Part shown: piece after piece, positions 1 to 21,023 of the stretch
Layout: each line of letters starts with the position of its first letter
Numbering within the stretch: the first letter of the stretch is position 1
Origin: Candidatus Saccharimonadota bacterium
GTDB lineage: Bacteria > Bacillota_I > Bacilli_A > Mycoplasmatales > Hepatoplasmataceae
Length of the DNA: 32,000 nucleotides
Assembly (NCBI GenBank): GCA_027925325.1
Contig: AP027133.1
Span: 570,001 to 602,000, forward strand
Direction of reading: 5' to 3'
The notes under the pieces: model-generated
Seen by the model: the letters and a program-made list of their open reading frames with translations, nothing else
Databases searched by the model: none
Told to the model about the DNA's origin: nothing
Position numbers and translations under genes: made by a program

Positions 1-1861
1 TAAATGGAGCATTATTAATTATTTCTGTATAAATATTTTTGATTGATTTTATGTCTAATCCTCGCGTTGGATGACCGGCTAAGAGCAATTTATGCTCACG
101 CGAAATTTCCCGCGAAATTACAAATTTTTGCTGATTGCCACCTGACAAATTTCTTATCTCAATATTATAATTACTAGCACCCTCTACATTCATTTTCTTA
201 ATTAATTTTTCTGTTCATCGATAAATTTCTTTATTATCAACAACTAAATTTTTTCCCTCTTTTTGATTTGTTTTTTTCGGAAAATAAATTTTTGCGAATC
301 TTTGATCATTGAAACTAGTAATTATTGAATTAAAGGCTAAATTTCGATCAGCAATAATTCCATGCTTAAATCGATCAATTGGAATATGACTAATAAATTT
401 ATTTTTATCTTTAATTTTAGAATTACTAATATCTCTATCTTCAAACAAAATTTTTGATTCTTTTGTTGCTTTTTTGATTCCGGCAATACAATTAAAAATT
501 TCCTCTTGACCATTTCCTTCAATTCCAGCAAGACCAAAAATCTCTCCTTCTTTAACATCAAAAGAAACATTGTCAACCGCTTTAAATCCTTTTTTTGTAA
601 TATAACTTAAATTTTTAACCTCAAGCAATTTTTTTGTAGAAGGACTTTCTTTCTTAAAATCTAATGTTATCTTTGTTCCTACCATTATTTTGGCAATATG
701 ATCAATCGTAACATCTGCTGTATTTTTGTAATTAGCAATTAAATTACCTTTATTCAATACAGCAATATTATCAGCGATTTCTTTTACTTCATGTAATTTA
801 TGTGAAATAAATAATATTGTTTTATTTGCATCCCTTAATTTTTTGATTAATTGTAAAAGAGAAGAAATTTCATCAACCGATAAAGTTGCAGTTGCTTCGT
901 CAAAAATAATTACATCTTTTTCTACTCAAAGTGTTTTTAATATCTCGACTTTTTGTCGATCACCAACATTTAATTTTGAGACCAATTGATCAGGATTTAA
1001 ATTAATCCCATAACGATTTGTGATTGCATCAAAACGATTACGATATTTTTTATAATTTAAAATTCCATATTTTGTTGAATTTCTTGTATTTAAATCAACC
1101 TTTAAGAAATCTAGTTCTTTTCTTATCTCTTCTAGTTTTTGTGTATTTTTTGTAAGATATTTTTTAAAATCTATTTTTAATTGCGAAATTTGTGAATTAA
1201 ATTTTTCCGATTTTTTTTCTAAATTTAAAATTTCTTTTTTTAATTTAGAAATTTTTTGTTCTTTTTTTAAAATATTTAATTTGTAAAATATAAGATTACT
1301 ATTTGTTAGTTTTTTTAATTTTTGTTCTAATTTATTAATTTCTAATTTATTATGATATCTTGCAAAACGTTTTTTTCTTAGTTCTAATTCAATATCATAA
1401 TATTTTTCAAATTTTTCTTTTTCTTTTGTATTTTTTGAAAAATTATTATATTTATTTTCTAATTCAAATATTTTTTGCTTTAAAGCATCTTTATCATCAT
1501 TTGAAACAAAAAGATCCTCTTGTCCCAAGATAATATTTTCAAGAACTGTGAATTTTTCAACCAAATGAAAATGTTGATGAACCATTCCAATTTGATGTTT
1601 TTTAGCAGCTCCTGATTGATACATATCAGAAATTTTTCCATCTATTTTAATTTCACCAAAATCTTGTTTATATAAACCAAATAATATCGAAGTAAGCGTA
1701 GATTTGCCTGAACCATTTTCTCCTACAAGTGCGGTGACTTTTGCCCCTTCAATTCCAAGATTAATGTTATTGTTCGCAACAATCTTTCCATTTAAAAATT
1801 TCTTAGTAATATTTATAAATTCTAGTTTATAAATAGGATTAGAGTTTTTTTTATTTGACAT
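1..1861 (-). CDS. ABC transporter ATP-binding protein with two nucleotide-binding domains (CUT2 / sugar-nucleoside uptake type); C-terminus runs off the window start
   Basis: Track ORFs 926..1861 and 215..757 are in one frame, joined by TGA at 926-928 and 215-217; the frame stays open to base 2. Motifs: Walker A GENGSGKST, Q-loop MVHQHF, signature-like LNVGDRQKVEILKTL, Walker B IIFDEATATLS, second-NBD signature LSGGNQQK. Confidence 0.85.
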
Positions 1862-4534: not shown

Positions 4535-5584
4535 TTAAATTTCTCGTGTATATTTATCTGCTAAATTACTATTACTTTCGATATATTCAACTTTTATTTG
4601 CAAATGATTATTATTAATTAATTTAAATGATTGATCCATATAATCTTTTGCTTTTGTTTTACTATTCACTTTCCCTTTTTTGATTCAAGAAATTATTGTT
4701 TTGTTATCTTCATATACCAAACAATTATCTATTTCATTTTTTATTAAATATTTAACAAATTGTAAAAATGCAAAAGCCTCTATTTCATTTGCCCATTCAC
4801 ATTCAGAATTTTCTTTTTTACTTAATAATTGGCCTTTTTGATCAGCAATTATTGCAAGTCCTATTTTATTTTTATTTGAAGAAATGGCTCCATCAATATA
4901 AAAAATATTATTATTTGAATTATTGTTGTTGTTTTTATTTAAATTTTTAATATATTTTGCAAAATCTAAATAAAAAATAACAGTTGAAATTTGACTTAAA
5001 AAAGATAATAAATCTTTTTCTTTTGCAATCTTTTTGATTTTATTATTAAAATGAATATAAAAATTATCGAGAAGTCCTTCATTAAAAATTTGTTTTAAAT
5101 TATCTTTTTCCCCTTTAATAAAAAAATATAATTTTTTTAAATTATCTTTTTGATAATTAATATCGGTTGAATTTAAAATATCTTTTATTAAATTATCTGC
5201 ACTTTCATTAGTAACAGATAAAGATTTTTTTTCATTTAAAATTGAACTTATGATTTTAATAATTTCATTTCTATTTTGCAATAATTTTTGATTATTGTTA
5301 AATTTTGAATTTTTATCTAAATGAATTTTAATTCTTTTTAAAAAAGAAATTTTTCCATCATAATCTAATTCATCAAAAATTTTTCTCATTTTTTTTCAAT
5401 TTGATAAATCTTTAAAAACTTCAAAAATTTGATTATCCTTTAAGTTTGTCTTTTTTACAAAATCACTAATAAAATTAGAAAATTCTTTATAATCTTCACT
5501 TATTAATGTAACTTTCCCGTTTTTAGGATTTCAAAGTAATTCAAGTATCTTATCAATCGCGATTTTTAATTCATATTCTTCCAT
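4535..5584 (-). CDS. RNase H (type 1 fold) domain protein with ~190 aa uncharacterised N-terminal extension, 349 aa
   Basis: Track ORF 4685..5389 extends both ways through TGA (4685-4687, 5396-5398, 5531-5533), from ATG at 5582-5584 to TAA at 4535-4537. DEDD-like pattern: FYIDGA, ANEIEAFAFLQ, VYEDNKTIISW, SNSNLADKY. Confidence 0.7.
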
Positions 5585-5596
5585 TTAAACTCAATT

Positions 5597-6373
5597 TTAT
5601 TTTCCTCTCAATACTAGTCAATCAGCAATTTCAGCATAGATATTTTCTTTTGTTTCTTGATATTTATATCGCGCTCATTTTGCTCAAAAATAAGCCGTAA
5701 AGATTCTTGCTATTACAAACTTGTAATAATCAAAATCTAAAGAAAGATTAATATAAGTTTGTAAAAAAACATCCTCTTGTTTTTTTGTTAATTTTCTTTT
5801 TACAATAAAACTCGCAAGATCTAAATATTTGCTATTAATTCCACCATATTCATAATCAATAATTTTAATATTATCATTATTTAAAATTAAAATATTACCA
5901 TCTACAATATCATTATTTGCATAAACAAGATCCTTGTTTAAAAATTTTAACACTTCTTCTAAGATAATACTTTCATTTGGATAATTAAAAATTTCTTTTT
6001 GTGTATTTAAAAAATTTCAAGTTTTTAAAAAATTAGGTTCTCTTAATTTTGTATTATTTTTAATTTTAATATTATGAAGTCGATAAATTTCTTTTGCACA
6101 ATTAATCAAAATTTGATCTTTTACCTCTTCTGTTTTAAACGCTTTATGTTTAATTATTTTTGTACAAAAATAATTATTTTCAATCTCTAAATAATCAAAA
6201 ACTTTTAATTCTTTCAAAATTAAAATTTCTTGATTTCCATAAACATCAGTAAATTTGTTTTTAACAAAAAACTTACAAATAATATCATTTTTATAATAAA
6301 CATTATTTGATAATCCAATTTTATCTTTTGCTCAATTAGGATCAATTTTAATTATTTTTTCGTTTTTTTTCAT
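5597..6373 (-). CDS. choline/aminoglycoside phosphotransferase-family kinase (LicA-like), 258 aa
   Basis: ORFs 6017..6217 and 5684..5953 are in one frame, joined by TGA codons. Brenner-like NNDIVDGNIL followed by IIDYEYGG. The ATG at 6371-6373 overlaps the pyrG 3' end by 26 nt (alternative ATG at 6386-6388). Stop is TAA at 5597-5599. Confidence 0.7.
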
Positions 6374-7955
6374 ACTGATAAGCGGCATTAATAAAAGATT
6401 CAAAAAGTGGATCTAATTTATATAAGGTCGTATTGAATTCAGGATGAAATTGAACACCAATATAAAAATCATTATTTTTATATTCGACAATTTCCACTAA
6501 ATTATTTTCCGGATTAATTCCTGAAAATAATAATCCTTTTTGTTCTAATTCCTTTTTATATTTATTATTAAACTCATAACGATGGCGATGTCTTTCCTTT
6601 ATCATACTTTTCTTATATATTCTTTTTGCAAGCGTATTATCAATTAATTTACAATTATATTCACCCAAACGCATTGTTCCACCTAATTTTTTTAAATCTT
6701 GATCTTTAAGTAAATGAATAATAAAATTATTTTTATTTGGATTTAATTCTTCATGATAAACATTTAATTTAGCGATATTTTTGGCAAATTCTAAAATTAA
6801 TAATTGCATCCCAAAACATATTCCAAGTAATGGAATATTATTTTCTCTTGCATATTTAATTGCACTAATTTTTCCTGAAGTTCCTTCAATTCCAAATCCT
6901 CCAGCGATAATTATTCCTGAAAAATTTTTTAAATCATTTACATTTAAAGATTTTGCATCAAATAATTCTATTTTTAAAGAAATTTTTTGATAAATGGAAA
7001 TAATTCTTAATGATTCAATAATTGAAAGATAAGAATCTTTTAAATTATGATATTTACCAACTATTACAATTTTAATTTCGCCAATTTTTTGATCTTTAAT
7101 TAATTTATCAATCAATTGATAATTTTTAATTGGTGAATATTTTAAATTTAAATTTAAAATATCTGCAATTTTTTGATCAATTTTTTCATCTACTAATTTT
7201 TGAGGAATTTGATAAACACTATCAACGTTTTCAAGTTCAAAAATATAATCTTTGTGAACACTACAATTAGCTGAAATTTTATCAATGATTGTAGAAGAGA
7301 TTTTTTCTTCACTTCGTGTTACGAGAAAATTAGGAAAAACACCAAGACTATGCAATTGTTTCACACTATGCTGAAAAGGTTTACTTTTATATTCTTTATT
7401 TATTTTAAGAAAGGGAATAAAACCAATATGAATATTTATGACATTTTCTCTTTGAAACTGCAATTGTCTAATCGTTTCAAAGTAAGGAATAGATTCAATA
7501 TCACCAACCGTACCACCAATTTCAACAACTAAAAGATCATATCCATTTAAATTTTTTAATACAAGTTCAATAATTTTGTCGATAACATTAGGAATAATTT
7601 GAACTGTTTTACCCAAATATTTTCCCTTTCGTTCATCTTCTATTAAATTACTATAAATTTTTCCTGAACTAATTGAAGAATTTTTTGTAAGATTTTGATT
7701 AATAAATCTTTCATAATGACCAATATCTAAATCTGTTTCTCCGCCATCTCTAGTAACAAAAACCTCTCCATGTTCAATTGGTGAAATTGTCCCTGGATCA
7801 ACATTTAAATAAGGATCAAATTTCATCATATTTACTTTTAATTTTCTTTCTTTAAAGATAGAAGCAAGCGAAGCAGAAAAAATACCTTTTCCTAATGATG
7901 ATAATACTCCACCTGTTATAAAAATTATCTTCCCATTTATTTTTCTATAATTCAT
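6348..7955 (-). CDS. pyrG: CTP synthase, 535 aa
   Basis: Intact ORF. FITGGVLSSLGKGI N-terminus, GGTVGDIES, glutaminase domain LGICFGMQ and HRHRYE. Confidence 0.97.
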   Translation of the reverse strand: MNYRKINGKIIFITGGVLSSLGKGIFSASLASIFKERKLKVNMMKFDPYLNVDPGTISPIEHGEVFVTRDGGETDLDIGHYERFINQNLTKNSSISSGKIYSNLIEDERKGKYLGKTVQIIPNVIDKIIELVLKNLNGYDLLVVEIGGTVGDIESIPYFETIRQLQFQRENVINIHIGFIPFLKINKEYKSKPFQHSVKQLHSLGVFPNFLVTRSEEKISSTIIDKISANCSVHKDYIFELENVDSVYQIPQKLVDEKIDQKIADILNLNLKYSPIKNYQLIDKLIKDQKIGEIKIVIVGKYHNLKDSYLSIIESLRIISIYQKISLKIELFDAKSLNVNDLKNFSGIIIAGGFGIEGTSGKISAIKYARENNIPLLGICFGMQLLILEFAKNIAKLNVYHEELNPNKNNFIIHLLKDQDLKKLGGTMRLGEYNCKLIDNTLAKRIYKKSMIKERHRHRYEFNNKYKKELEQKGLLFSGINPENNLVEIVEYKNNDFYIGVQFHPEFNTTLYKLDPLFESFINAAYQYEKKRKNN

Positions 7956-9517: not shown

Positions 9518-10429
9518 TTATTTATATAATTCTGTATCAATTAATTTAACTTCCGTAAAATCAATCTTATTTAAATTGGCTTTATCAAAATTTACCGCTT
9601 TTAATTCGGCTCCTTTTAAATTAGCTTTTGCAAGATTTGCTCTACTTAAATTTACATTAAGTAATTTAGCATTACTAAAATCAACATGAGATAAATTTGC
9701 ATAAGATAAATCTACATTTTCAAGAATTGCATTTTTTCAAGTTGATAAATTTAAATTAGATTTACTTAAATCTGTCTTTTTTAAAGTTGTTCCATTAAAA
9801 TTAGCATAACTGAAATTTGTTTTATTAAAATTACAATTTATAAATTTAGCATTAATAAAACTTCCTTTTTTAAGAGACATATTTTTAAAATTTGTTTTAT
9901 TAAAATTTGCTCCATCAAAAATCGGAGCAATAAAATTTAAATAGCTAAATTTTGCATCCAAAAGATTTGTATTACTAAAATTAACTTTTCTTAATTTTTC
10001 GCCAATAAAATTTATTAAAAATTTTTTATTATTAATTGAAAAATTACTTAGATTAGCATTTGTAAGATCACTTTTTGCAAATCTAATTTTTCTGAAATTA
10101 GCATCAGTAAGATTTACATCATTAAAGTTAGCATCAGTAAAATTAACTTTTAAAAAATTTGCTTTAGTAAGAGTTGCATTTTTAAAATTTGCTTCTGATA
10201 AATTACATTTTATGAAATTAGATTCCTTTAAATTTGTCTCTATAAAATTTGCCATCTTTAAATTAGATTTTTTAAATAATGAAAAACTTAAATTTGCTTT
10301 ACTAAAATTAATTTTATTTAAATTTGATTTTGCAAAAAGAGAATTATTTAAATTTTTGGTTGAAAAATTAATTCCTGTTAAATTTTTATTTTTAATTTCT
10401 GTAATTTCTTTTTTATTATTATTTTCCAT
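9518..10429 (-). CDS. pentapeptide-repeat protein, 303 aa, repeats over essentially the whole length
   Basis: A(N/D)(L/F)xx repeats run from NLTGINFSTKNLNNSLFAKSNLNKINFSKANL to ANLKGAELKAVNFDKANLNKIDF. ORF 9737..10429 continues through TGA at 9737-9739 to TAA at 9518-9520. The SD AAAGGA lies in the 11 nt gap after the upstream helicase stop. Confidence 0.9.
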
Positions 10430-10440
10430 AAAATTCCTTT

Positions 10441-13400
10441 CTATAAATTAATAGTATTTTTAATAATTTTTTCAATATTATTTAATTCCATTTTTTGATT
10501 ATTAAATCAATTTGAAATTCAAATACGATAAAAATTATAACCTCTTTCTTTTAAAAAGTCTTGCTTTGAAATATCTCTCTCTCTTACAGATTTATAAGAA
10601 TTTTTAATCGCCTGATCAGATTCTATCAAAAGAATTATTTTATGATTTTCATCATAAAATAAAAAATCTGCTTTATATCCATAAGTTTTATCTCTATTTA
10701 TTACATATAAATTATATCTTTTTGCTATCTTTATAAGTTCTTGATATAAATCTTTTTCAAATTTAGAATTAAAATTTTTAATACTAAATTGATTTTGATT
10801 GATTATTTTTTTATTATTATATGACTTAATACAATGTTTTAAAAATCTATAAAGAATATAAATTCCACTTTCTAAATTATCTTTATGTGCTTGATTACGA
10901 ATAAAAAAATTCTCAAAATCATTTTGTCTAATTGACGTAATTACATACATTTTTAATTTTGCTCTTGTAACCGCAACATTAATTCTATTTACTCCGCCAA
11001 ATTTATTAATTGGACCAAAATTAAAAGATATTTTTCCTTCTTCATTTCTTCCATACAAAGTTGAAAAAATAATTATATCCCTTTCGTCCCCCTGAACATT
11101 TTCAATATTTTTAACAAAAAGATTGACATCATCACTATTAATTCAATTAGAAAAATTAAAATCATTATAACTTATACTTGCTAATTTCTCTGAAAGATAT
11201 TTTTCTTGTTTTGAGTTCATTGTAATAATTCCAATAGATTTTTTATTTAAATTTAAATTATTTTTAATTTGATATAAAATTTCTATAATTTTATCGATCT
11301 CGTTATGATTAAGTCCATTTTTATAAATTGAATCTTTTAATTCAAAATATTCTATCGGTTGAAAATTTTTATTTTTTCCATTTTTACTAATAAATATAAG
11401 ATTATCATTATAAAAAATATTATTTGAATATTCAATTAATTCCTTAAAATCAGAACGATAATGATATTTAAGCATAATATGTGGAAATTTAGTTTTTGCA
11501 TAATTTAACAATGACAATTTATCATCAATTAAATTTTTCTCCTCAAATTTTTCAAATTCTTGATCAATATTTCTTGATACAAAAAAATTGGTTGGAGCTA
11601 ATTGCTTTTCATCTCCTAAAATTACAACTTTTTTAGATCTTTCAATCGCAGGTAAACTTCTTTCAATAAACATCTGTGAAGCTTCATCAAAAATAACAAG
11701 ATCAAACTTATCCTTAAGATCAAAAATACTTGAAATTGTCTCAGGATTTAATAATCAAATTTTATATAAATTCTTAAAGGTATCTTTTTCAGTTTTTAAA
11801 AACATTTTGATACCTCATTTTTTTTTCGGATCAAAAACTATTCTTTTAAATTGGGGCGATGAATTTTCAAAATTTATTAAAAATTGCTTTGCTAAATAAT
11901 ACTTTGTTATTTCCGAGAATTTTTTAATTTTTGTTTGTCTTAAATTTATAAATTTATCATAATTATTTTTTCAATCAAATATTTGATCTCTTAATTTAAA
12001 TATATATTTATATTTATTAAGTCTTTCTCGAAAAATTTTAAATTCTATTATTTGCAAAAGTTTATCAAATTTTATTTTCTGACTTTTTATATAGTTAATA
12101 AAATCTTTTAGAAATGAAAATTCTTCTTCAGAAAAATTTTTTATTATTTGAAATTTGTTAAATTTCAAAGTTACATTTTGCTCTTCTTTTTTATATTTTG
12201 TAATTAATTTTTCCTGATTTTTTAAATTATCAAAAAAAATCTTATTATATAAATCTTCTATTTTAGTTTTAGTTTGATGATAATTTTTTAAATTTAAAAG
12301 ACAATTTTGCAAAAATGTAATCATTTCTGTCATATCTTGATTTACTTGTAAATCTCTTTTTAAACCGGCGAATTTTCGATCATATTTTCTTTTGCTATTT
12401 AAAAATTTTTTCTTTAAAAGGAAAAAATTGTTTTTTAAATTTAAATATTTTTCTTCAATATTTTCCTTTTTCAAATAATTTGAAAATATATTAAAAACAA
12501 AATTATTTTTAATTACCAAATTAATATAATCAACTAAAAATGGTGTAAAAACTGAAAGATATATTAAATCATCACAAATCTTAAATAATTGTTCAAATCG
12601 ATCAATTGGATAATCAATTAGAAATGAGCTTAAACGATCATTTCTAAGATATTCATAAATATCTTTATATTTTTTTTCATTTCAATTTTGTAATAAATCT
12701 TTTCATAATAAAGATATCGTCTTTTTTTCTTTTTTTAATTCTTCTTTTTTTCCATTAATCAAAAAATTAAAATAATCAGAAATATCACCATCGTTTTTTT
12801 TAATAAAATCCAAACCATAAATATTAGCTATTTCATCTCTTAATTTGATCATTTGTTCAATTTTCGATAATAAATTATTTTCAAATAATTCTTTTATTTT
12901 ATTTAAAAAAATAGAAAAATTATTATTTTTATTTCCTTCATTTAAAATAAAAGAGTTGATTTTTTCATCATAAATACTCTCTTTTAAAAATTCATTAAAA
13001 TTTTTAAATTTAAAATAAAACTCCTCAATTAATTCATATATTTTTTTATTTTCAAAAAATTCAATATCTTTATAAAAATCAATTGAATCCATATTTTTTA
13101 AATACTCTACAATTTGATCTGATAAATTGTCAATCTTATTAATTTCTTCTTGAAATTTTTTATCATTAATAAATTCAAATTTTTCTGTTTCTAATATTTT
13201 TTTTGCCGCTTCATAAGATTGATTTATCTGTTGATAAAAATCACCTTTATTATTCATATCTGTAAGATAAAACGCAAATTTATTTAAATTATTCAATCTT
13301 TGATAAATAACATCAAGCGCAGCTCTTTTTTCTGAAACTAAAGCAATTTTTTTATTTTTTAAAATAGCATCATAGATGATTGATAAAATTGTTTGTGATT

Positions 13401-14505
13401 TTCCTGTTCCAGGAGGTCCTCAAATAACTAAATTATTAGTCTTATTTTCATTTATTTTTTTTAAAGCAAAAAACTGTTGATTATTTAAATTATCAATATA
13501 AAATAATCCTTTTTCATCAAGATTATATGCATTTTTTTCAATATGATTATCAAACAAAAATTGAGAATTTTTTTGTGAATTTTTTTTATTTACTAAACTA
13601 TATCTTTCTAGTTGTTTTGTAAAATATCCTTTTTCTAAAATTAAATTTAGATCTCTTTTTACAGCATTATCATACTTATCAAAAAAACCGATTGTAAAAC
13701 TTTTTTCTATCTTAAAAAGAAAATTAAATTTTTCAATGTTACTATAATCTTTAAATTGATCTAAATTATCAGAATAAGATTCAAGATAGGTAATAATTTC
13801 TTTTTTATTTCTTTTAAAATTAACAAATAAATTTTTAATATTTGATAAAAATGATTTTTCATAATCAAAATAATAATCTTTATTTTTTAAAAAATTTTCA
13901 ATTATAAAATTGTTAACTATAACATCTCTTGTATTATCATAATACATTCTTACTTTATGTAAATTATTATCAAATATTAAAATTATCGGAACAAAAAAAA
14001 TTGGTGATCTAATAGGAATTGTCTTATTTATATTTGTAAAATTTGTAAGAAAATAATAAGGGACAAAATAAAAGGTTTGATAACCGATTTCATTTTTAAT
14101 TTTTTGATTTTCTTTTTCAATATTATTAAAAATTAAAAAATTTTTTTCTTGATCTGTTTTTTTACTAGAAATTTTTTTTCTAATTTTTCTACAATATATT
14201 TTTTCTTTATTTTTTATATAAAATAAATTAAAATTTTTAATAAAATTTTCCTTATTTTCAATAATATTCAATTTTAAATCAACTTTTAAATTCTTAATAT
14301 CTTTTTTTAAAAAGCTATTTAATTTTAATAATGATTCTTCTTGTAAATTGGAAATTGAAAAATTATAATTAGTACTTTTCGATGTTCAAATATTGCGATT
14401 TCTCTTATTTAAATTTGTTAGCTTTTTTTGAAAATTTTCTAATTCCTGTTTAAATTTTTCTGATATCTTTATTTTTTGCAAATTATTTTCTTCTTTATGC
14501 TTCAT
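10441..14505 (-). CDS. DUF4011-like N-terminal domain + Upf1/DNA2-type SF1 helicase (AAA_11/AAA_12-like) + C-terminal Vsr/DUF559-like endonuclease domain, 1354 aa
   Basis: Five track ORFs (10519..11058, 11143..11673, 11971..12519, 12703..13296, 13420..14271) share one frame. I walked the junctions I could not infer from the track, and found only TGA (10 in total). ATG at 14503-14505 is preceded by AGGAGA; stop is TAG at 10441-10443. Motifs: LTNLNKRNRNIW (DUF4011-like), GPPGTGKSQT, DLVIFDEASQM, VILGDEKQLAPT, YHYRS, VQGDERDIIIFS, RINVAVTRAK. Nuclease tail: YKADFLFYD...LLIESDQ...ERDISKQDFLKERGYNFYRIWISNWF. Confidence 0.9.
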
Positions 14506-14619
14506 TTCTTATCTCCTAAATTTTCAAAAAAATGAATAAGTAAAATTATTATATATTTTTATAAAAATATAAAATTAAGATATTTTTTAAATATTTAATT
14601 AAAATATAATTAATTTAGA

Positions 14620-15348
14620 ATGACTAATGAAGAATTAATTTTTATTAAAAACAATAATTATGATTATTATTTAAGAATAATAACAAAAATAGAAGATGAG
14701 TATCAAAAAAGTAAAAAAATAAAACTAGCAAATATTTTTTCTGCTTTTTTTTATTATCTTGGTTATTTAATTTTGATTACTTTATTTCAAAACGCCGCTG
14801 CTTTAAGTTTTGCAAAAAAAGGACAATTTAGAAAAGCTGCTTTATATGCATTGCTTGGTTTAAATATTTTTTTCTTTTTATATTTAGGAGAAAGTAAAAA
14901 ATGAAAAAAACATTATAATCAAAAAATTAAAAAAATAAATTTAACTCAAGAAATTCAAGAAAAAATTAAAAATCAAGAATTTTTAAAAGGCTTAACAGAA
15001 GATAAATTAGAATTAATTAAAAAAGAAAAATTATTTAATACAAATCCTCCTAAAGATAAAATCAAATTAGGCTTAGTTTATGGCTCAAGTGTAAGAGCTA
15101 AAAATTTATTTAAAGATATTGGGGCAAATATTGTAAATGTAAGTGGAGGAAAAATGCAAAGTTATTTTTATCTTTTAAATGATGCAAGAGAAGATGCGAT
15201 CGAACAGATGATTAAAAATGCAATATTAACCTACGGTGAATTAGATAATAAAGAAATTCATAATATAAGATTATCAACATCACAAATTGCAAATGGTGCA
15301 AGTGAAATTTTAGTATATGGAACGGTTGTTAAAAATAAAAATTCTTAA
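14620..15348 (+). CDS. membrane-anchored YbjQ/DUF74 (UPF0145) family protein, 242 aa
   Basis: ORFs 14620..14904 and 15154..15348 are in the same frame, joined by TGA at 14902-14904; the linker was checked codon by codon. Two hydrophobic segments (IFSAFFYYLGYLILITLF, AALYALLGLNIFFFLYLG). C-terminal YbjQ-like GLVYGSSVRAKNLFKDIGANIVNVSGGK...AREDAIEQM...ILVYGTVV. Confidence 0.75.
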
Positions 15349-17096
15349 TTTATTAAAATTACAGCAAATTTTTTATTCTCAGTTTCCATTTTACTTACAA
15401 GTTCTTTGATTTGCTTTTCCTCTAAATAATCATCATGTCTTATTTGTTCAAAATTTCTTAAACCCATTTCCCCAATCATTTGATAAAGGGATGCAAGTGA
15501 ATTTATTGCTCTCAATTCAAAATGAATTTCATAAATTTTATTAGGAAGAAAATCTCGATCACTATTATAATAAAGAATCTTTTTTGGTTGTTTAAAAATA
15601 TTTTGTTCAAATTCTTGTTTTAAATAATTTTCAATTGCAAAAATCATCTCTAATAATTTTAGAGTATCAATTTTTTCTATATCATCTTTAATACTATGCA
15701 ATCCTTTTTCTAAAGATAATATTTTTGTGCTTCCAATTTGATCTCTTTCAAAAATATTTATTTTAAATTGACTATCATATAGAAAAGGTGAATGTGTTGC
15801 AAATATAATGTATATACTCTTAAATAATTCCTTATTTTTTGCAATTAAATTTTTTAAATATTTTTTTAATTCAATTTGTAAAGGAATTGATAAATTATTT
15901 TCCGGTTCATCAACCATAATAATTTTAATTTGATCATTAGAATTATCATGAATAATAGAATTTAAAGTAATAATAAAATCTAAAAAGACCTTTGCTCCAT
16001 TACTATTATTTTTACTTTCGTTACTTCCTATTAATCAATCACCTTTAGAATTAAATTGTAATTTTATTTGATTATTTGTAATATTTATTTTAATTTCAAA
16101 ATCAATGAATTCAAAATTTTGTAAAACCTTTTTTAAATTATTTCGAATCTTTTCTTCAATTTTTGATTTTTCTTCATTTTTTTCATTTCCATTAGGCATT
16201 TCATAATAAAATTTTAATTGTTCTTTTTCAGGATATAAAAAATTTAAAATATCATTAATTCTTGCCTTTTCCGAAAAAGCTTCACCTGTATTTATTCTTT
16301 CAAACAAATAATTTAAATCAAAATTATATTCAAGATCATTAATTCTTGAATTATTTTTAAGATAAACAATTTCAGGTTTCTTGATCAAAATTTTTTCAAT
16401 ATTTAAAAAAACTCTAAAAATAAATTCAGTTTTTAAATAAATTTTAGTGTTATCTATATTTAAATAAGCAATCTCAGAAGTTAATTCAAATCTTCCTTTG
16501 CTTTTTGCATATGAAATTACTCTTTTAATCTTATTAAATATTTTTTCTAATAATTTTTGTGTTTTTAGACCAACATTGTAATCTCTAAATTCCTGATAAA
16601 AATTTTTATAGAAATCTTCATTATTAGGATTTTTAAGATATTCAAAAATAATTTTTTTATAAATTGAATTATTATCAAGTGCATGTAAATAATTATTATT
16701 AGAATCTACTCCTACTTTTCTTCCTTCATTTCGAAAAATATTCATATATTTATCTTTTAAACTCTTTGGAAATAAATAATTTAAACTATTTTCTAATATT
16801 TTTAATTCTTTTTCCGAAAAATTATAATTAATAAAAACTCTCGATACGATATCTTCTTCTTTTTGGATCGCAAAATTTATTTTTTCAGAACCCTTAATAT
16901 CACGTAAAAATTTAGTTCTTAAATCTAAATTATTTCTTCTTAAAAAAGTTACCGCTTCTAAAAAAGATGTTTTCCCAGAAGAATTTAAACCCAAAAGTAA
17001 ATTTATATTATTACTATATAAATCTATCTTTTGTTTTTTAAAGATTGTCTTTATCCCCTCTACTTCAAAAGAAATTTTATTTTCTTCTATATTCAT
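15345..17096 (-). CDS. AAA_15/AAA_21-type (ABC/SMC-like) ATPase, 583 aa, no recognisable nuclease module
   Basis: ORFs 16035..17096 and 15345..15917 are joined by a single TGA at 16035-16037; the gap was checked. Walker A GLNSSGKTSFLEA, signature-like SNGAKVFLDF, Walker B IIMVDEPENNLS, H-loop FATHSPFL. SD GGAGAA upstream of the ATG at 17094-17096. Stop is TAA at 15345-15347. Confidence 0.85.
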
Positions 17097-17240
17097 ATTC
17101 TTAATTCTCCATTTTAATATATTTAATTTATATTTTTTAAATTATATATAATGTTTGATATAAAATAAATTATAAATATAATAATAATTTATCTTTTTTA
17201 AAATTTTTCGATTTAGATTAAATGTAACTTTTTGCCTATT

Positions 17241-19404: not shown

Positions 19405-19665
19405 TTAATTTTTAATACAGGAAATAATCGTTCAAGTATCAGGTCATCAATCAGTTCCGATAAGCGTATCACAAAAAGCAATAAAGAGAAATGCAATTAA
19501 GATAAATAACAAAATATATTTTACTAAAAAATAAATTCCCTTAAAAAAATAATTAATAAAAAAATTAACAATGATTACAATGATTACTATCAGAAAAATC
19601 AATATTATTATTCAGAAGAGCATGATTCAATATCATGCTCAATCACTATAAAAATTATTAACCAT
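19405..19665 (-). CDS. small Trp-rich two-TM membrane protein, paralog A (86 aa)
   Basis: Hand translation with table 4: MVNNFYSDWAWYWIMLFW...LFIAFCDTLIGTDWWPDTWTIISCIKN. All 7 Trp are TGA, so it is invisible in the standard-code track. Weak SD; the start is uncertain. Confidence 0.55.
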
Positions 19666-19735
19666 AAAATTTCTTAATTCTTTAATAAAGTTAATTATTT
19701 ATTTTATTAATTTAATTGCCATTTATTCAATCGAC

Positions 19736-20032
19736 TAAATTTCAACTTGATGGTCATCAATCTGTTCCAATAAACGTATCACAAAAAGCAATAAATAGAA
19801 AAACAGAAAGAGCAACACCAACAATCGGACCGATAATTTTAAAAATTAAAGCAAGTGAAAATTTAAAAATAAATTTTAATAATATAAATATAAAAATAAA
19901 AGCAAGAATTGCAATTAGTAATCAGAAAATGAAAGTTCAATATCATTCTCAATCGCTATAAAATGCACCAACTGAATTACCCAAACTTGCCCCTAATTGT
20001 CCAAAATCATTATACACAGATTTTAATTTCAT
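19736..20032 (-). CDS. small Trp-rich two-TM membrane protein, paralog B (98 aa)
   Basis: ATG at 20030-20032 preceded by AGGAAAGAG. MKLKSVYNDFGQLGASLGNSVGAFYSDWEWYWTFIFW...LFIAFCDTFIGTDWWPSSWN. 7 TGA-Trp. TAG stop at 19736-19738. Shares the FYSDWxWYW and FIAFCDTxIGTDWWP blocks with paralog A. Confidence 0.65.
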
Positions 20033-20090: not shown

Positions 20091-21023
20091 TTAAGAATAT
20101 TTATTAAAAAAGTCCAAACTTAAAAGATATTTTTCTTTTAAAGTAAAAACATCTTTTATTATTTCTAATAATTTTCCTTCTGTAATTTTTCTAATATAAA
20201 ATTCACTTTTTAATTGATCTTTCAAATTATTAATATTTATAATAATGAGTTCATCCGAAATATTTTTTTTAAGATGTGGATTTAAAATCTTAAGAACATA
20301 TTGATAAATTCCTACTTGTCTTCAATAATCAAAATTATTCCCCTCTGATGAGGTTTTAAGGTCACAAACATGAATCATTTTTGTATCCTTATTTATAAGT
20401 AAAAAATCAATTTCTCCCATAAAAATTCCATCAGGATGATAAAATTTTAAATTATGTCCAATTACAACAAAATTTTTCTGATCCAAATAATTAATAAATT
20501 CTAAAACTTCTGTTGATTGTGTTGAAATTAAGATATCTTCTTCATTTTCTAAATAATCAACAATTTCTCTTTCGATATTTTTTCCATAATCAATCGATTC
20601 TTGCAGTTTTATTTTTCCAAGTATTTTAAGTGTTTGACTATAAATTGTTTGCTTAGTAAACATCTTTACTTGATCTTTAATTAATTTTAATTCATATAAA
20701 ACTCTTTTACCTTTTTCAGAATTTCAATTAATTCAATTTCAACCAAATTCATTTACCATTTTATCTAAATCTACATTAAATTCTTTTTCTTTTTTAATTT
20801 GTTTTAATTTATATTCTCCTAAAAGAGGGAGAATATAAGGTTCGTTAAATTTATTCAAAAATTCTGATAAATTAGTATTACTTGGAACACTTAAAAATTC
20901 ATTATTTTGTTCAAGATAATAAAAATCTAAATTTTTATATGGTTGATATAATTTAGTTTTTTTAATTAATTTAAGTTTAATTTTTTGCTGTAATTCTGGA
21001 TAATAATAACGAAAATTTTTCAT
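20091..21023 (-). CDS. RecB/Cas4-like PD-(D/E)xK nuclease-family protein without Cys cluster, 310 aa
   Basis: ORFs 20739..21023 and 20322..20663 are in the same frame and continue through TGA (20739, 20733, 20724, 20322) to TAA at 20091-20093. Motifs in order: GEIDFLLIN, VCDLKTS (DxK), QVGIYQY (QxxxY). The ATG abuts the rsmI stop (TAAATG). Confidence 0.7.

What the first reader, a model, noticed from the sequence alone, without database searches (positions are those of the whole stretch)
9518..17096. 7.6 kb accessory insert between metG and tatD: four non-housekeeping genes with defence-island flavour
Everything to the right (tatD to recF) and left (metG, pyrG, mnmG) is core translation or replication machinery in a Firmicute-like order.

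The segment 9518-17096 instead carries four genes: the helicase-nuclease, the pentapeptide protein, a 2-TM::YbjQ fusion, and an orphan AAA_15/21 ATPase.

They form three transcription units with their own AT-rich spacers (14506-14619 and 17097-17240) and SD sequences.

The combination of NTPase, nuclease and membrane protein is what defence islands typically look like. No known multi-gene system is matched by the gene order.
Basis: inference. Interest (0 to 1): 0.7.

Follow-up and report, generated by a model that had tools for sequence, protein, structure and literature searches.

The report
Conserved helicase-nuclease block, not an insert
The four genes are real, but they form a gene block that is fixed and under purifying selection in one group of woodlouse-gut mycoplasma-like symbionts; it is built around a lone helicase-nuclease related to known anti-phage proteins and is neither a recently inserted defence island nor a new multi-gene system.

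Summary
The window comes from 'Candidatus Hepatoplasma scabrum', which reads UGA as Trp. Read that way, 9518-17096 holds the four genes described:
- a 303-aa pentapeptide-repeat protein;
- a 1354-aa Upf1-like SF1 helicase with a C-terminal MTES_1575/Vsr-like nuclease;
- a 2-TM::YbjQ protein;
- a 583-aa AAA_15/21 ABC-type ATPase.

- All four genes sit in the same order in two other Hepatoplasma lineages; a third keeps three of them and has deleted YbjQ.
- Their amino-acid identities (58-83%) are at or above the genome average (61-64%). dN/dS is 0.10-0.41, against 0.16-0.24 for tatD and metG.
- Composition and codon use match the flanks. There is no tRNA, integrase or bounding repeat.

The helicase is the only part with a defence link. 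It matches PADLOC PDC-S37 and NCBIfam ProA and Hhe, but scores far below their membership cut-offs. Its relatives stand alone among housekeeping genes in other mollicutes and in 80 metagenome loci, never beside the other three gene types.

The ATPase belongs to a tiny subfamily, so far traced only to mollicutes, and has no nuclease or partner. The repeat protein is strongly basic, so it is not a Qnr-like DNA mimic.

Verdict: a lineage-fixed block of independent modules. It is ordinary, with modest interest.

The parts
9518..10429 (-). Pentapeptide-repeat protein, 303 aa. It is repeats almost throughout and strongly basic (pI 9.9, net +22). It lies 11 nt downstream of the helicase, so it is probably co-transcribed. 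Its stop codon abuts the metG stop codon (0-nt spacer).
   Evidence: Pfam Pentapeptide 3.8e-53. NCBIfam Qnr 74.9 bits against a cut-off of 240, and HalA 56.6 against 250. Charge. Orthologues at 64-66% identity in L001-L003. dN/dS 0.34-0.41.
10441..14505 (-). Helicase-nuclease, 1354 aa: a DUF4011-type N-terminal region (aa 1-345), an Upf1-like SF1B helicase core and a C-terminal MTES_1575/Vsr-like endonuclease.
   Evidence: Pfam AAA_12 9e-18, AAA_11 8.3e-15, MTES_1575 1.7e-14. PDB profile hits to IGHMBP2, Upf1, Sen1 and DNA2. PADLOC PDC-S37 2.5e-121 and Hhe 1.6e-69. NCBIfam ProA 370 bits and Hhe 288 bits, both below cut-off.
13396..13419 (-). Helicase Walker A motif, GPPGTGKS (aa 363-370).
   Evidence: Invariant across the 22-sequence alignment A2.
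11674..11688 (-). Helicase motif II, DEASQ (aa 940-944).
   Evidence: Four of its five residues (D940, E941, S943, Q944) are invariant and A942 nearly invariant in A2. About 500 aa of poorly conserved, K/N-rich insertion separates it from the Walker A motif.
10468..10761 (-). MTES_1575 (Vsr/DUF559-like, PD-(D/E)xK) endonuclease domain, aa 1249-1346. It contains E1295-x-D1297, R1308, D1311, G1322 and W1329.
   Evidence: Pfam PF18741 1.7e-14. D1297, R1308, D1311, G1322 and W1329 are invariant or nearly invariant in A2. PDB 3hrl 'endonuclease-like protein' 3.7e-4.
14506..14619 (.). A 114-nt AT-rich divergent intergenic region between the helicase (-) and YbjQ (+). AGGAG lies 8 nt upstream of the helicase ATG. 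YbjQ has no clear SD motif.
   Evidence: Sequence read directly. The promoter scan is no better than shuffled sequence.
14620..15348 (+). 2-TM::YbjQ protein, 242 aa. Hydrophobic segments lie at about aa 36-57 and 73-91; the YbjQ_1 domain is aa 149-238. Its 3' end overlaps the ATPase 3' end by 4 nt (convergent genes).
   Evidence: Pfam YbjQ_1 1.2e-18. Hydropathy. Full-length homologues only in Hepatoplasma plus one hit at 41%. Deleted in H. crinochetorum Ps, leaving a 324-nt gap.
15345..17096 (-). ABC-type (AAA_15/AAA_21) ATPase, 583 aa. It has Walker A GLNSSGKTS (aa 36-44), an SxG signature (aa 365-367), Walker B/D-loop DEPENNL (aa 396-402) and an H-loop THS (aa 434-436). No nuclease domain was detected. 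The C-terminal ~140 aa are poorly conserved.
   Evidence: Pfam AAA_15 2.1e-11. Alignment A3 motifs. PDB profile hits to SMC3 heads (3.9e-08), PtuA, GajA and AriA (1e-7 to 4e-6) and OLD (7e-6). Only 34 relatives at E<=1e-3 among 1.84 billion representatives. dN/dS 0.10-0.16.
17097..17240 (.). A 144-nt AT-rich spacer between tatD and the ATPase, with GGAG upstream of the ATPase ATG. In the Ps and Av lineages this junction holds different lineage-specific secreted-protein genes.
   Evidence: Sequence. L001 has a 729-aa repetitive ORF here; L003 has an ORF with a signal-peptide-like N-terminus and glycine-rich repeats.

Best explanation
The interval is a chromosomal block fixed in the H. crinochetorum / H. 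scabrum clade of Hepatoplasma. It is not a recent or mobile insert. It consists of independent modules that sit together at an old synteny breakpoint downstream of tatD.

Module 1 is a stand-alone helicase-nuclease: a DUF4011-type N-terminus, an Upf1-like SF1B motor and a C-terminal Vsr/DUF559-like MTES_1575 endonuclease. It belongs to the same broad family as the single-protein anti-phage factors Hhe and ProA and the PADLOC candidate PDC-S37.

The most likely mechanism has three steps, all inferred:
- the N-terminal region recruits the enzyme to foreign or aberrant DNA;
- the motor translocates 5'->3' using ATP, by analogy with Upf1, IGHMBP2 and DNA2;
- the C-terminal nuclease cuts.

Shown here: all helicase motifs and the nuclease core residues are intact, and the gene is under purifying selection.

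A basic pentapeptide-repeat protein is co-transcribed 11 nt downstream. It is probably an accessory nucleic-acid- or protein-binding rod, not a DNA mimic.

Module 2 is a membrane-anchored YbjQ protein and is dispensable, because it is deleted in strain Ps.

Module 3 is a nuclease-less ABC ATPase of the OLD/PtuA/AriA/GajA superfamily. It belongs to a tiny subfamily whose traced members are all mollicutes. It is strongly constrained, has no recognisable partner, and its role is unknown.
For: - Source and genetic code.
- Same order in three other lineages: L001, L002, L003; Av accessions AHK22685-7 are consecutive.
- Identity to the window: ATPase 58-83%, helicase 63-73%, YbjQ 62-78%, repeat protein 64-66%. 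For comparison tatD is 74%, metG 77-78%, and genome-wide average amino-acid identity (AAI) is 61-64% (PMC10928387).
- dN/dS (NG86): ATPase 0.10-0.16, helicase 0.20-0.27, repeat protein 0.34-0.41; tatD 0.24, metG 0.16-0.20.
- GC3 is 0.07-0.10, against 0.08-0.20 for the other 21 ORFs of the window. Codon-usage distance is within the flank range. All 13 Trp codons are UGA.
- No tRNA and no meaningful bounding repeats.
- Helicase relatives stand alone among housekeeping genes in Tyloplasma, in four other low-GC contigs that read as code 4 and in M. cynos. None of the 80 metagenome loci has a YbjQ or pentapeptide neighbour; two have only a weak ATPase-profile match (2e-07 and 7e-05) about 6-7.5 kb from the helicase.
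- On a neighbour-joining tree the Hepatoplasma helicases form one clade, with P0005 as sister, inside a clade of low-GC sequences, those traceable being mollicute-like, that is separate from the Clostridia, Vallitalea and archaeal sequences.
- Defence homology.
- YbjQ is deleted in Ps but present in its close relative L002.
Against: - No experiment bears on function. 'Defence' rests only on homology to Hhe, ProA and PDC-S37, and the scores are far below the equivalog cut-offs.
- DUF4011 helicases are core genes in P. aeruginosa (bioRxiv 10.1101/2022.11.11.516204). In mollicute-like contigs they sit beside uvrD or uvrC/uvrAB. A repair role is therefore equally compatible with the data.
- Independence of the modules is inferred from lack of co-occurrence elsewhere. 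The ATPase and YbjQ families are almost confined to Hepatoplasma, so that test has little power for them.
- The state of H. vulgare and of the tatD neighbourhood in Tyloplasma could not be read.
Confidence: 0.62

Rival explanations
1. The helicase-nuclease, possibly with the repeat protein, is a housekeeping DNA-repair or replication-restart enzyme kept in reduced genomes. It would act as a Dna2- or AddAB-like end processor and not as an immune protein.
For: - It is retained in three deep Hepatoplasmataceae lineages with genomes of about 600 kb and in Metamycoplasmataceae (PMC8249566).
- Its dN/dS is like that of tatD.
- Its neighbours are uvrD in L093 and uvrC/uvrA/uvrB in L094.
- The DUF4011 gene is core in P. 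aeruginosa.
- The PDB profile hits DNA2.
Against: - The M. hominis orthologue is disrupted by an ICE in a viable strain (PMC12228374).
- No H. vulgare homologue appears among the top 120 hits, although Tyloplasma's does.
- The nearest named families are anti-phage ones: ProA, Hhe, PDC-S37.
- A copy lies on a Spiroplasma citri plasmid next to a restriction endonuclease.
Confidence: 0.22
2. The ATPase, YbjQ, helicase-nuclease and repeat protein together form one new composite defence system. It would be a re-assorted analogue of Gabija: ABC ATPase + SF1 helicase + nuclease, plus a membrane component.
For: - The order is conserved across lineages that share only 61-64% AAI.
- All parts are under purifying selection.
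- The domain inventory resembles Gabija, and the ATPase hits GajA, PtuA and AriA.
Against: - These genomes are collinear throughout (PMC10928387), so conserved order is expected without any functional link.
- The genes lie on both strands in at least three transcription units.
- YbjQ is lost in Ps while the other genes stay intact.
- Helicase relatives in 6 mollicute or mollicute-like contexts have none of the partners, and the 80 metagenome contexts have no YbjQ or pentapeptide partner and only two weak, distant ATPase-profile matches.
- An ATPase paralogue sits about 30 genes away in Ps.
Confidence: 0.1
3. The segment is a recently acquired, horizontally transferred accessory island.
For: - The gene content differs from what follows tatD in outgroups.
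- The tatD-ATPase junction holds variable genes in the Ps and Av lineages.
- Tetranucleotide distance is somewhat raised at 11.2-15 kb.
Against: - The block is present in all four sampled lineages of the clade.
- Codon use is fully host-like and Trp is always UGA.
- There are no mobility genes, tRNA or att-like repeats.
- The tetranucleotide excursion is no larger than that of gyrA/gyrB.
Confidence: 0.04

Closest known systems
Hhe (DUF4011 helicase + Vsr-like nuclease; NCBIfam NF042953, PADLOC PDLC02194). From my own knowledge, it was reported as a single-gene anti-phage system by Gao et al., Science 2020.
   Same: Both have an SF1 AAA_11/AAA_12 motor followed by an MTES_1575/Vsr-like nuclease, with a DUF4011-type N-terminus in the family. 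Both are single-gene units. Klebsiella plasmid Hhe aligns at 33% identity over aa 339-1338.
   Different: The score is 288 bits against an equivalog cut-off of 2000. The protein has 1354 aa, against a profile of about 1800-1900 positions. Only the C-terminal third aligns to the Hhe profile. There is no extra C-terminal domain. It is fixed in the chromosome, not plasmid-borne.
ProA anti-phage protein (NCBIfam NF058533) and PADLOC candidate PDC-S37
   Same: These are the best profile matches: PDC-S37 2.5e-121 (aa 723-1352) and ProA 1.9e-110 (aa 705-1350).
   Different: The ProA score is 370 bits against a cut-off of 1500. The N-terminal 700 aa do not match either profile. I found no paper describing ProA or PDC-S37 in the library.
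Chromosomal DUF4011/MTES_1575 helicases of Mycoplasmoidales (M. cynos WP_129720618, M. bovis Mbov_0647, M. hominis)
   Same: They share the architecture, belong to a mollicute host, and are solitary genes among housekeeping genes.
   Different: They are longer (1561 aa in M. cynos) and share only about 33% identity. None has an adjacent pentapeptide, YbjQ or AAA_15 gene.
Gabija (GajA ATPase-Toprim + GajB UvrD-like helicase)
   Same: Both place an ABC ATPase of the same superfamily close to an SF1 helicase, with one nuclease domain in the pair.
   Different: The ATPase has no Toprim domain. The helicase is Upf1-like SF1B, not UvrD-like SF1A. The nuclease is a PD-(D/E)xK type fused to the helicase. 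The genes are separated by an opposite-strand gene, and the pairing is not seen elsewhere.
PtuA (Septu / retron Ec78) and AriA (PARIS) ABC ATPases
   Same: The ATPase core is similar: PADLOC AriA 1e-12, and PDB PtuA and AriA at about 1e-7.
   Different: There is no PtuB (HNH) or AriB (DUF4435) partner. Similarity is limited to the Walker A, signature and Walker B regions. The subfamily has only 34 detectable relatives.
Qnr / MfpA DNA-mimic pentapeptide-repeat proteins
   Same: Both are all-repeat, right-handed beta-helix proteins without a signal peptide.
   Different: The Qnr score is 74.9 bits against a cut-off of 240. The protein has 303 aa, against about 215 for Qnr. Its net charge is +22 (pI 9.9), whereas DNA mimics are acidic (the acidity of mimics is from my own knowledge).

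Membership tests
Hhe (NF042953 equivalog) | Whole-protein score at or above the curated equivalog cut-off (2000 bits) | tested here: not met
   288.3 bits; only aa 898-1344 align to profile positions 1245-1676 of 1797.
Hhe (NF042953 equivalog) | SF1 helicase core (AAA_11/AAA_12) with intact motifs | tested here: met
   Pfam hits. GPPGTGKS, DEASQ, GDEKQL, QGDERD and VAVTRAK are all present.
Hhe (NF042953 equivalog) | C-terminal Vsr/MTES_1575 endonuclease | tested here: met
   PF18741 1.7e-14, aa 1249-1346.
Hhe (NF042953 equivalog) | N-terminal DUF4011 domain | tested here: inconclusive
   The window protein has no PF13195 hit at E<=0.01. The hit is 'weak' in orthologue P0003 and clear in P0005-P0015, which align over the N-terminus. 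The AF2 model of aa 1-345 (pLDDT 66) has no PDB fold match.
Hhe (NF042953 equivalog) | Protects against phage when expressed | not testable with these tools
   This needs an experiment.
ProA (NF058533 equivalog) | Score at or above the cut-off of 1500 bits | tested here: not met
   370.5 bits; aa 705-1350 align to profile positions 1070-1705 of 1903.
PADLOC PDC-S37 | Match to the PDLC05009 profile over most of its length | tested here: inconclusive
   E 2.5e-121, but the best stretch covers only profile positions 726-1342 of 1550. PADLOC's own coverage rule was not available.
Gabija | GajA: ABC ATPase fused to a Toprim nuclease | tested here: not met
   There is no Toprim or DUF4435 Pfam hit. 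The C-terminal 140 aa have no conserved acidic motif in A3. GajA similarity is confined to the ATPase.
Gabija | GajB: adjacent UvrD-like SF1A helicase in the same operon | tested here: not met
   The helicase is Upf1/IGHMBP2-like. It is separated from the ATPase by an opposite-strand gene.
Septu / PARIS | Partner nuclease gene next to the ATPase (PtuB HNH or AriB DUF4435) | tested here: not met
   The neighbours are tatD and YbjQ. No PADLOC hit was found for them.
Genomic (defence) island / accessory insert | Variable presence among close relatives | tested here: not met
   The block is present in all four sampled lineages of the clade. Only YbjQ is lost, in Ps.
Genomic (defence) island / accessory insert | Deviant composition or codon use | tested here: not met
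   GC3, codon-usage distance and UGA-Trp use are within the range of the flanks.
Genomic (defence) island / accessory insert | Mobility signatures (integrase, tRNA target, bounding repeats) | tested here: not met
   There is no tRNA, only low-complexity repeats and no recombinase among the Pfam hits.
Qnr/MfpA DNA-mimic pentapeptide proteins | Family-level score and an acidic, DNA-like surface | tested here: not met
   Qnr scores 74.9 bits against 240, and MfpA 50.8 against 360. Net charge is +22.
YbjQ_1 (PF01906) | Pfam gathering score | tested here: met
   68.1 bits against 23. The N-terminal 2-TM extension lies outside the family model.

The most novel reading that the evidence does not exclude
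The ATPase, the membrane YbjQ protein, the helicase-nuclease and the basic pentapeptide-repeat protein might act together. They would form a previously undescribed, Hepatoplasma-specific composite immune system, a Gabija-like logic rebuilt from non-homologous parts. A narrower version is that the co-transcribed basic repeat protein is an obligate DNA-binding partner of an Hhe-like helicase-nuclease.
Probability: 0.1. Interest if true: 0.6.

Novelty: new member of a known kind. Interest (0 to 1): 0.3.

Why it matters
The result mainly corrects a reading. In very small, AT-rich, code-4 genomes, a run of 'non-housekeeping' genes with NTPase and nuclease domains looks like a defence island. Here it is a lineage-fixed block under purifying selection.

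There is modest positive value:
- Hhe/ProA-like DUF4011 helicase-nucleases turn out to be retained as solitary chromosomal genes across several mollicute lineages with genomes of about 600 kb. The published defence inventory of these genomes lists only restriction-modification systems and CRISPR-Cas9 and does not mention the helicase (PMC10928387).
- The work also identifies a very small, strongly constrained subfamily of nuclease-less OLD/PtuA-like ATPases, traced so far only to mollicutes, whose function is unknown.

Tried and rejected
- Table-11 ORF calling gave fragments, so I switched to table 4.
- Exact look-ups of window proteins failed. pyrG was not on record.
H. vulgare and the tatD region of Tyloplasma therefore could not be read.
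- The AlphaFold model of the ATPase from a 3-sequence alignment was unusable (pLDDT 45).
- Promoter and terminator scans were no better than shuffles.
- A viral-contig scan for the ATPase family found nothing.
- Literature searches for PDC-S37, ProA and Hhe found no description.
- The paper's supplement does not list these locus tags.
- I rejected the idea that the ATPase C-terminus is a degenerate Toprim domain, because alignment A3 shows no conserved acidic residues there.
- I rejected the idea that the repeat protein is a DNA-mimic regulator, because of its charge.
Full report
**What is there.** The window has about 20% GC, and table-11 ORFs in the region are fragments. With table 4 (UGA = Trp) the interval resolves into four ORFs at exactly the stated borders:
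- 9518-10429 (-), 303 aa;
- 10441-14505 (-), 1354 aa;
- 14620-15348 (+), 242 aa;
- 15345-17096 (-), 583 aa.

Pfam confirms each assignment. The first is a pentapeptide-repeat protein (3.8e-53). The second is an AAA_11/AAA_12 SF1 helicase with a C-terminal MTES_1575 restriction-endonuclease-like domain (1.7e-14). The third has a YbjQ_1 domain (1.2e-18) behind two hydrophobic segments. The fourth is an AAA_15/AAA_21 ATPase. The flanks are metG and tatD-mnmE. A 100% match identifies the source as the metagenome-assembled genome 'Candidatus Hepatoplasma scabrum' Ps-JP; the helicase is HPPSJP_5240 on a 606-kb genome.

**Transcription layout.** The helicase and the repeat protein are 11 nt apart on the same strand, and an AAGGA lies in that spacer. 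The helicase has AGGAG and the ATPase GGAG upstream; YbjQ has no clear Shine-Dalgarno motif. YbjQ and the ATPase converge and overlap by 4 nt. The stop codons of the repeat protein and metG abut. Orientation alone requires at least three units. Promoter and terminator scans do not exceed shuffled controls in this AT-rich DNA.

**Is it an insert?** Three other Hepatoplasma lineages were recovered through helicase homologues.
- Logan contig ERR14048305 (L002) has tatD, ATPase, YbjQ, helicase, repeat protein and metG, identical to the window.
- The H. crinochetorum Av/Tokyo2021 lineage (L003) has ATPase, YbjQ, helicase and the start of the repeat protein; its contig does not reach tatD or metG. 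The Av accessions AHK22685-7 are consecutive.
- H. crinochetorum Ps (L001) has tatD, an extra 729-aa repetitive ORF, ATPase, a 324-nt gap where YbjQ has been deleted, helicase, repeat protein and metG.

Amino-acid identities to the window are at or above the genome average:

| Gene | Identity to window |
|---|---|
| ATPase | 58-83% |
| Helicase | 63-73% |
| YbjQ | 62-78% |
| Repeat protein | 64-66% |
| tatD | 74% |
| metG | 77-78% |
| mnmE | 84-85% |
| Genome-wide AAI among these lineages | 61-64% (PMC10928387) |

Crude NG86 dN/dS values point the same way:

| Gene | dN/dS |
|---|---|
| ATPase | 0.10-0.16 |
| Helicase | 0.20-0.27 |
| Repeat protein | 0.34-0.41 |
| tatD | 0.24 |
| metG | 0.16-0.20 |

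GC3, codon-usage distance and the exclusive use of UGA for Trp (13 of 13 codons) are indistinguishable from the flanks. The only tetranucleotide excursion, over the K/N-rich middle of the helicase, is no larger than that of gyrA/gyrB. There is no tRNA, no recombinase, and only low-complexity repeats at the borders.

**Outgroups add nuance.** In Mycoplasmopsis cynos, from the sister family, the order is mnmE-tatD-rsmA. In Bacillus subtilis it is rsmI-abrB-metG-tatD-yabE-rnmV-rsmA. The content downstream of tatD in Hepatoplasma is therefore derived, and it sits at a synteny breakpoint. metG is inverted relative to tatD, so this is not a simple insertion between two adjacent genes. The tatD-ATPase junction is itself variable. 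Ps carries a 729-aa repetitive ORF there. Av carries an unrelated ORF with a signal-peptide-like N-terminus and glycine-rich repeats. H. scabrum and L002 carry nothing. I could not read H. vulgare or the tatD region of Tyloplasma, because the single genome-collection scan returned only strain Ps.

**The helicase-nuclease.**
- A profile search of solved structures places the motor with Upf1, IGHMBP2, Sen1 and DNA2 (SF1B). The C-terminus matches a Vsr/DUF559-like 'endonuclease-like protein'.
- All helicase motifs and the conserved E-x-D / R..D / G..W residues of the nuclease are intact.
- PADLOC gives PDC-S37 at 2.5e-121 and Hhe at 1.6e-69, both over the C-terminal half only.
- NCBIfam gives 'anti-phage protein ProA' at 370 bits (cut-off 1500) and 'Hhe' at 288 bits (cut-off 2000). 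The protein is a relative of these families, not a member.
- Genuine Hhe on Klebsiella plasmids aligns at 33% identity.
- Full-length or C-terminal relatives occur as solitary genes among housekeeping genes in Tyloplasma litorale and in four other contigs of 19-29% GC that read as code 4. One lies beside uvrD, one between uvrC and uvrA/uvrB with a SocA/Panacea gene, and one beside a TraG/VirD4 gene.
- A solitary relative also occurs in M. cynos.
- In Spiroplasma citri a split copy lies on a plasmid near an NgoFVII-type restriction endonuclease.
- A neighbour-joining tree puts the Hepatoplasma proteins in one clade. That clade sits inside a clade of low-GC sequences, those traceable being mollicute-like, distinct from the Clostridia, Vallitalea and archaeal sequences.
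- The literature shows a DUF4011 gene that is core in P. aeruginosa, chromosomal in M. bovis, and disrupted by an ICE in a viable M. hominis strain.
- The published defence inventory of these Hepatoplasmataceae genomes lists only restriction-modification systems and CRISPR-Cas9.

**Are the four genes one system?** I built HMMs for the ATPase and YbjQ families and ran phmmer with the repeat protein. I searched the six-frame ORFs of all 80 metagenome loci that carry helicase relatives, and of the five low-GC mollicute-like loci. Only the Hepatoplasma loci scored. The exceptions were two weak ATPase matches (2e-07 and 7e-05) about 6-7.5 kb from the helicase.

The ATPase family is tiny. A word-indexed search found only Hepatoplasma orthologues. 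An exhaustive profile search of 1.84 billion representatives found 34 proteins at E<=1e-3. Of the members traced, one is a paralogue about 30 genes away in strain Ps, one family is from Spiroplasma attinicola, and the rest are unnamed metagenome sequences. All of the top six hits that I read are K/N/I-rich. None was found on viral contigs.

The ATPase motifs (Walker A, SxG signature, DEPE, THS) are conserved, but the C-terminal ~140 aa are not, and no Toprim or other nuclease is detectable. Solved-structure profile hits to SMC3 heads (3.9e-08), PtuA, GajA and AriA (1e-7 to 4e-6) and OLD (7e-6) are all weak and confined to the ATPase motifs.

The 2-TM::YbjQ fusion is likewise almost confined to Hepatoplasma. 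It has been lost in Ps while its neighbours stay intact. The genomes are reported to be collinear throughout, so conserved order is not evidence of a functional link. I therefore treat the block as independent modules. The helicase + repeat protein pair is the only plausibly coupled one.

**The repeat protein.** It scores far below the Qnr, MfpA and HalA cut-offs. It is the most basic protein in the neighbourhood (pI 9.9, net +22). That argues against a Qnr/MfpA-style DNA mimic. A nucleic-acid- or protein-binding rod is more likely, but this is inference.

**Mechanism (steps marked).**
- Shown: intact motor and nuclease motifs, purifying selection, solitary occurrence across mollicutes, homology to anti-phage helicase-nucleases.
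- Inferred: the N-terminal DUF4011-type region directs the enzyme to foreign or aberrant DNA, the motor translocates 5'->3' as in Upf1-like SF1B enzymes, and the C-terminal PD-(D/E)xK nuclease cleaves.

Whether the biological role is defence or repair cannot be decided here. I weight defence or surveillance somewhat higher, and give about 0.22 to a housekeeping repair role. The ATPase's function is unknown. Its strong constraint (dN/dS about 0.1) and the lack of a partner are the most puzzling feature.

**Verdict.** The 'accessory defence island' interpretation is only partly supported. The helicase is a new member of the known DUF4011/Hhe/ProA-like kind, and the ATPase belongs to a small unnamed subfamily of a known superfamily. 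Interest is modest (0.3).

Noticed in passing
window 4535-5584 (-): A 349-aa ORF with a C-terminal RNase H-like (RVT_3, 3.1e-05) domain lies between mnmG and the choline-kinase ORF. It has no counterpart at this position, or anywhere in the 24 kb held, in H. crinochetorum Ps. It is therefore a better candidate for a lineage-specific insertion than the block under study.
   Followed up: partly
window 5597-7955 (-); L001 16575-18935: pyrG (6348-7955) and a choline/ethanolamine-kinase-like ORF (5597-6403) overlap by 56 nt here. In strain Ps they are annotated as one 786-aa CTP-synthase::choline-kinase fusion. This is either a frameshift in this metagenome-assembled genome or a real split of a fused gene.
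   Followed up: partly
window 17097-17240; L001 5518-7707; L003 3-338: The junction between tatD and the ATPase is a variable slot. Ps holds a 729-aa repetitive, probably surface, protein there. Av holds an unrelated ORF with a signal-peptide-like N-terminus and glycine-rich repeats. H. scabrum and L002 hold nothing.
   Followed up: partly
window 20091-21023 (-): A 310-aa protein with no Pfam hit is the most conserved gene of the neighbourhood (88.6% identity to Ps, above mnmG and mnmE). It carries a D...D-x-K-like stretch (GEIDFLLINKDTKMIHVCDLKTS) that resembles a PD-(D/E)xK nuclease.
   Followed up: no
window 19405-19665 and 19712-20032 (-): Two tandem paralogous small membrane proteins (86 and 106 aa) have Trp-rich ends (SDWxWYW ... 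CDTxIGTDWWP). All their Trp codons are UGA. Both are conserved in Ps and have no Pfam hit.
   Followed up: no
window 1-1861 (-): A double-cassette ABC ATPase has an insertion of about 200 aa, K/E-rich and apparently coiled-coil, inside the first nucleotide-binding domain (the ABC_tran hit spans aa 31-325).
   Followed up: no
L094 8001-11786 and neighbours; L093; L092: In other low-GC, mollicute-like contigs the DUF4011 helicase sits between uvrC and a DUF4357 / SocA-Panacea pair followed by uvrA-uvrB-hsdM (L094), just downstream of uvrD (L093), or next to a TraG/VirD4 coupling-protein gene (L092). This is reminiscent of the ICE insertion into the M. hominis DUF4011 gene.
   Followed up: partly
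L096 (Spiroplasma citri plasmid pSciBLHMB-7) 5480-11458: A DUF4011 helicase relative, split into two ORFs, lies on a plasmid. One unannotated ORF separates it from an NgoFVII-family restriction endonuclease. This is a mobile, defence-like context that contrasts with the chromosomal copies.
   Followed up: no
NZ_LR214986.1 (PLSDB): A 986,659-bp Mycoplasmopsis cynos record labelled 'plasmid 13' carries mnmE, tatD, rsmA, eno and polC. It is evidently the chromosome, mislabelled in the plasmid collection.
   Followed up: no
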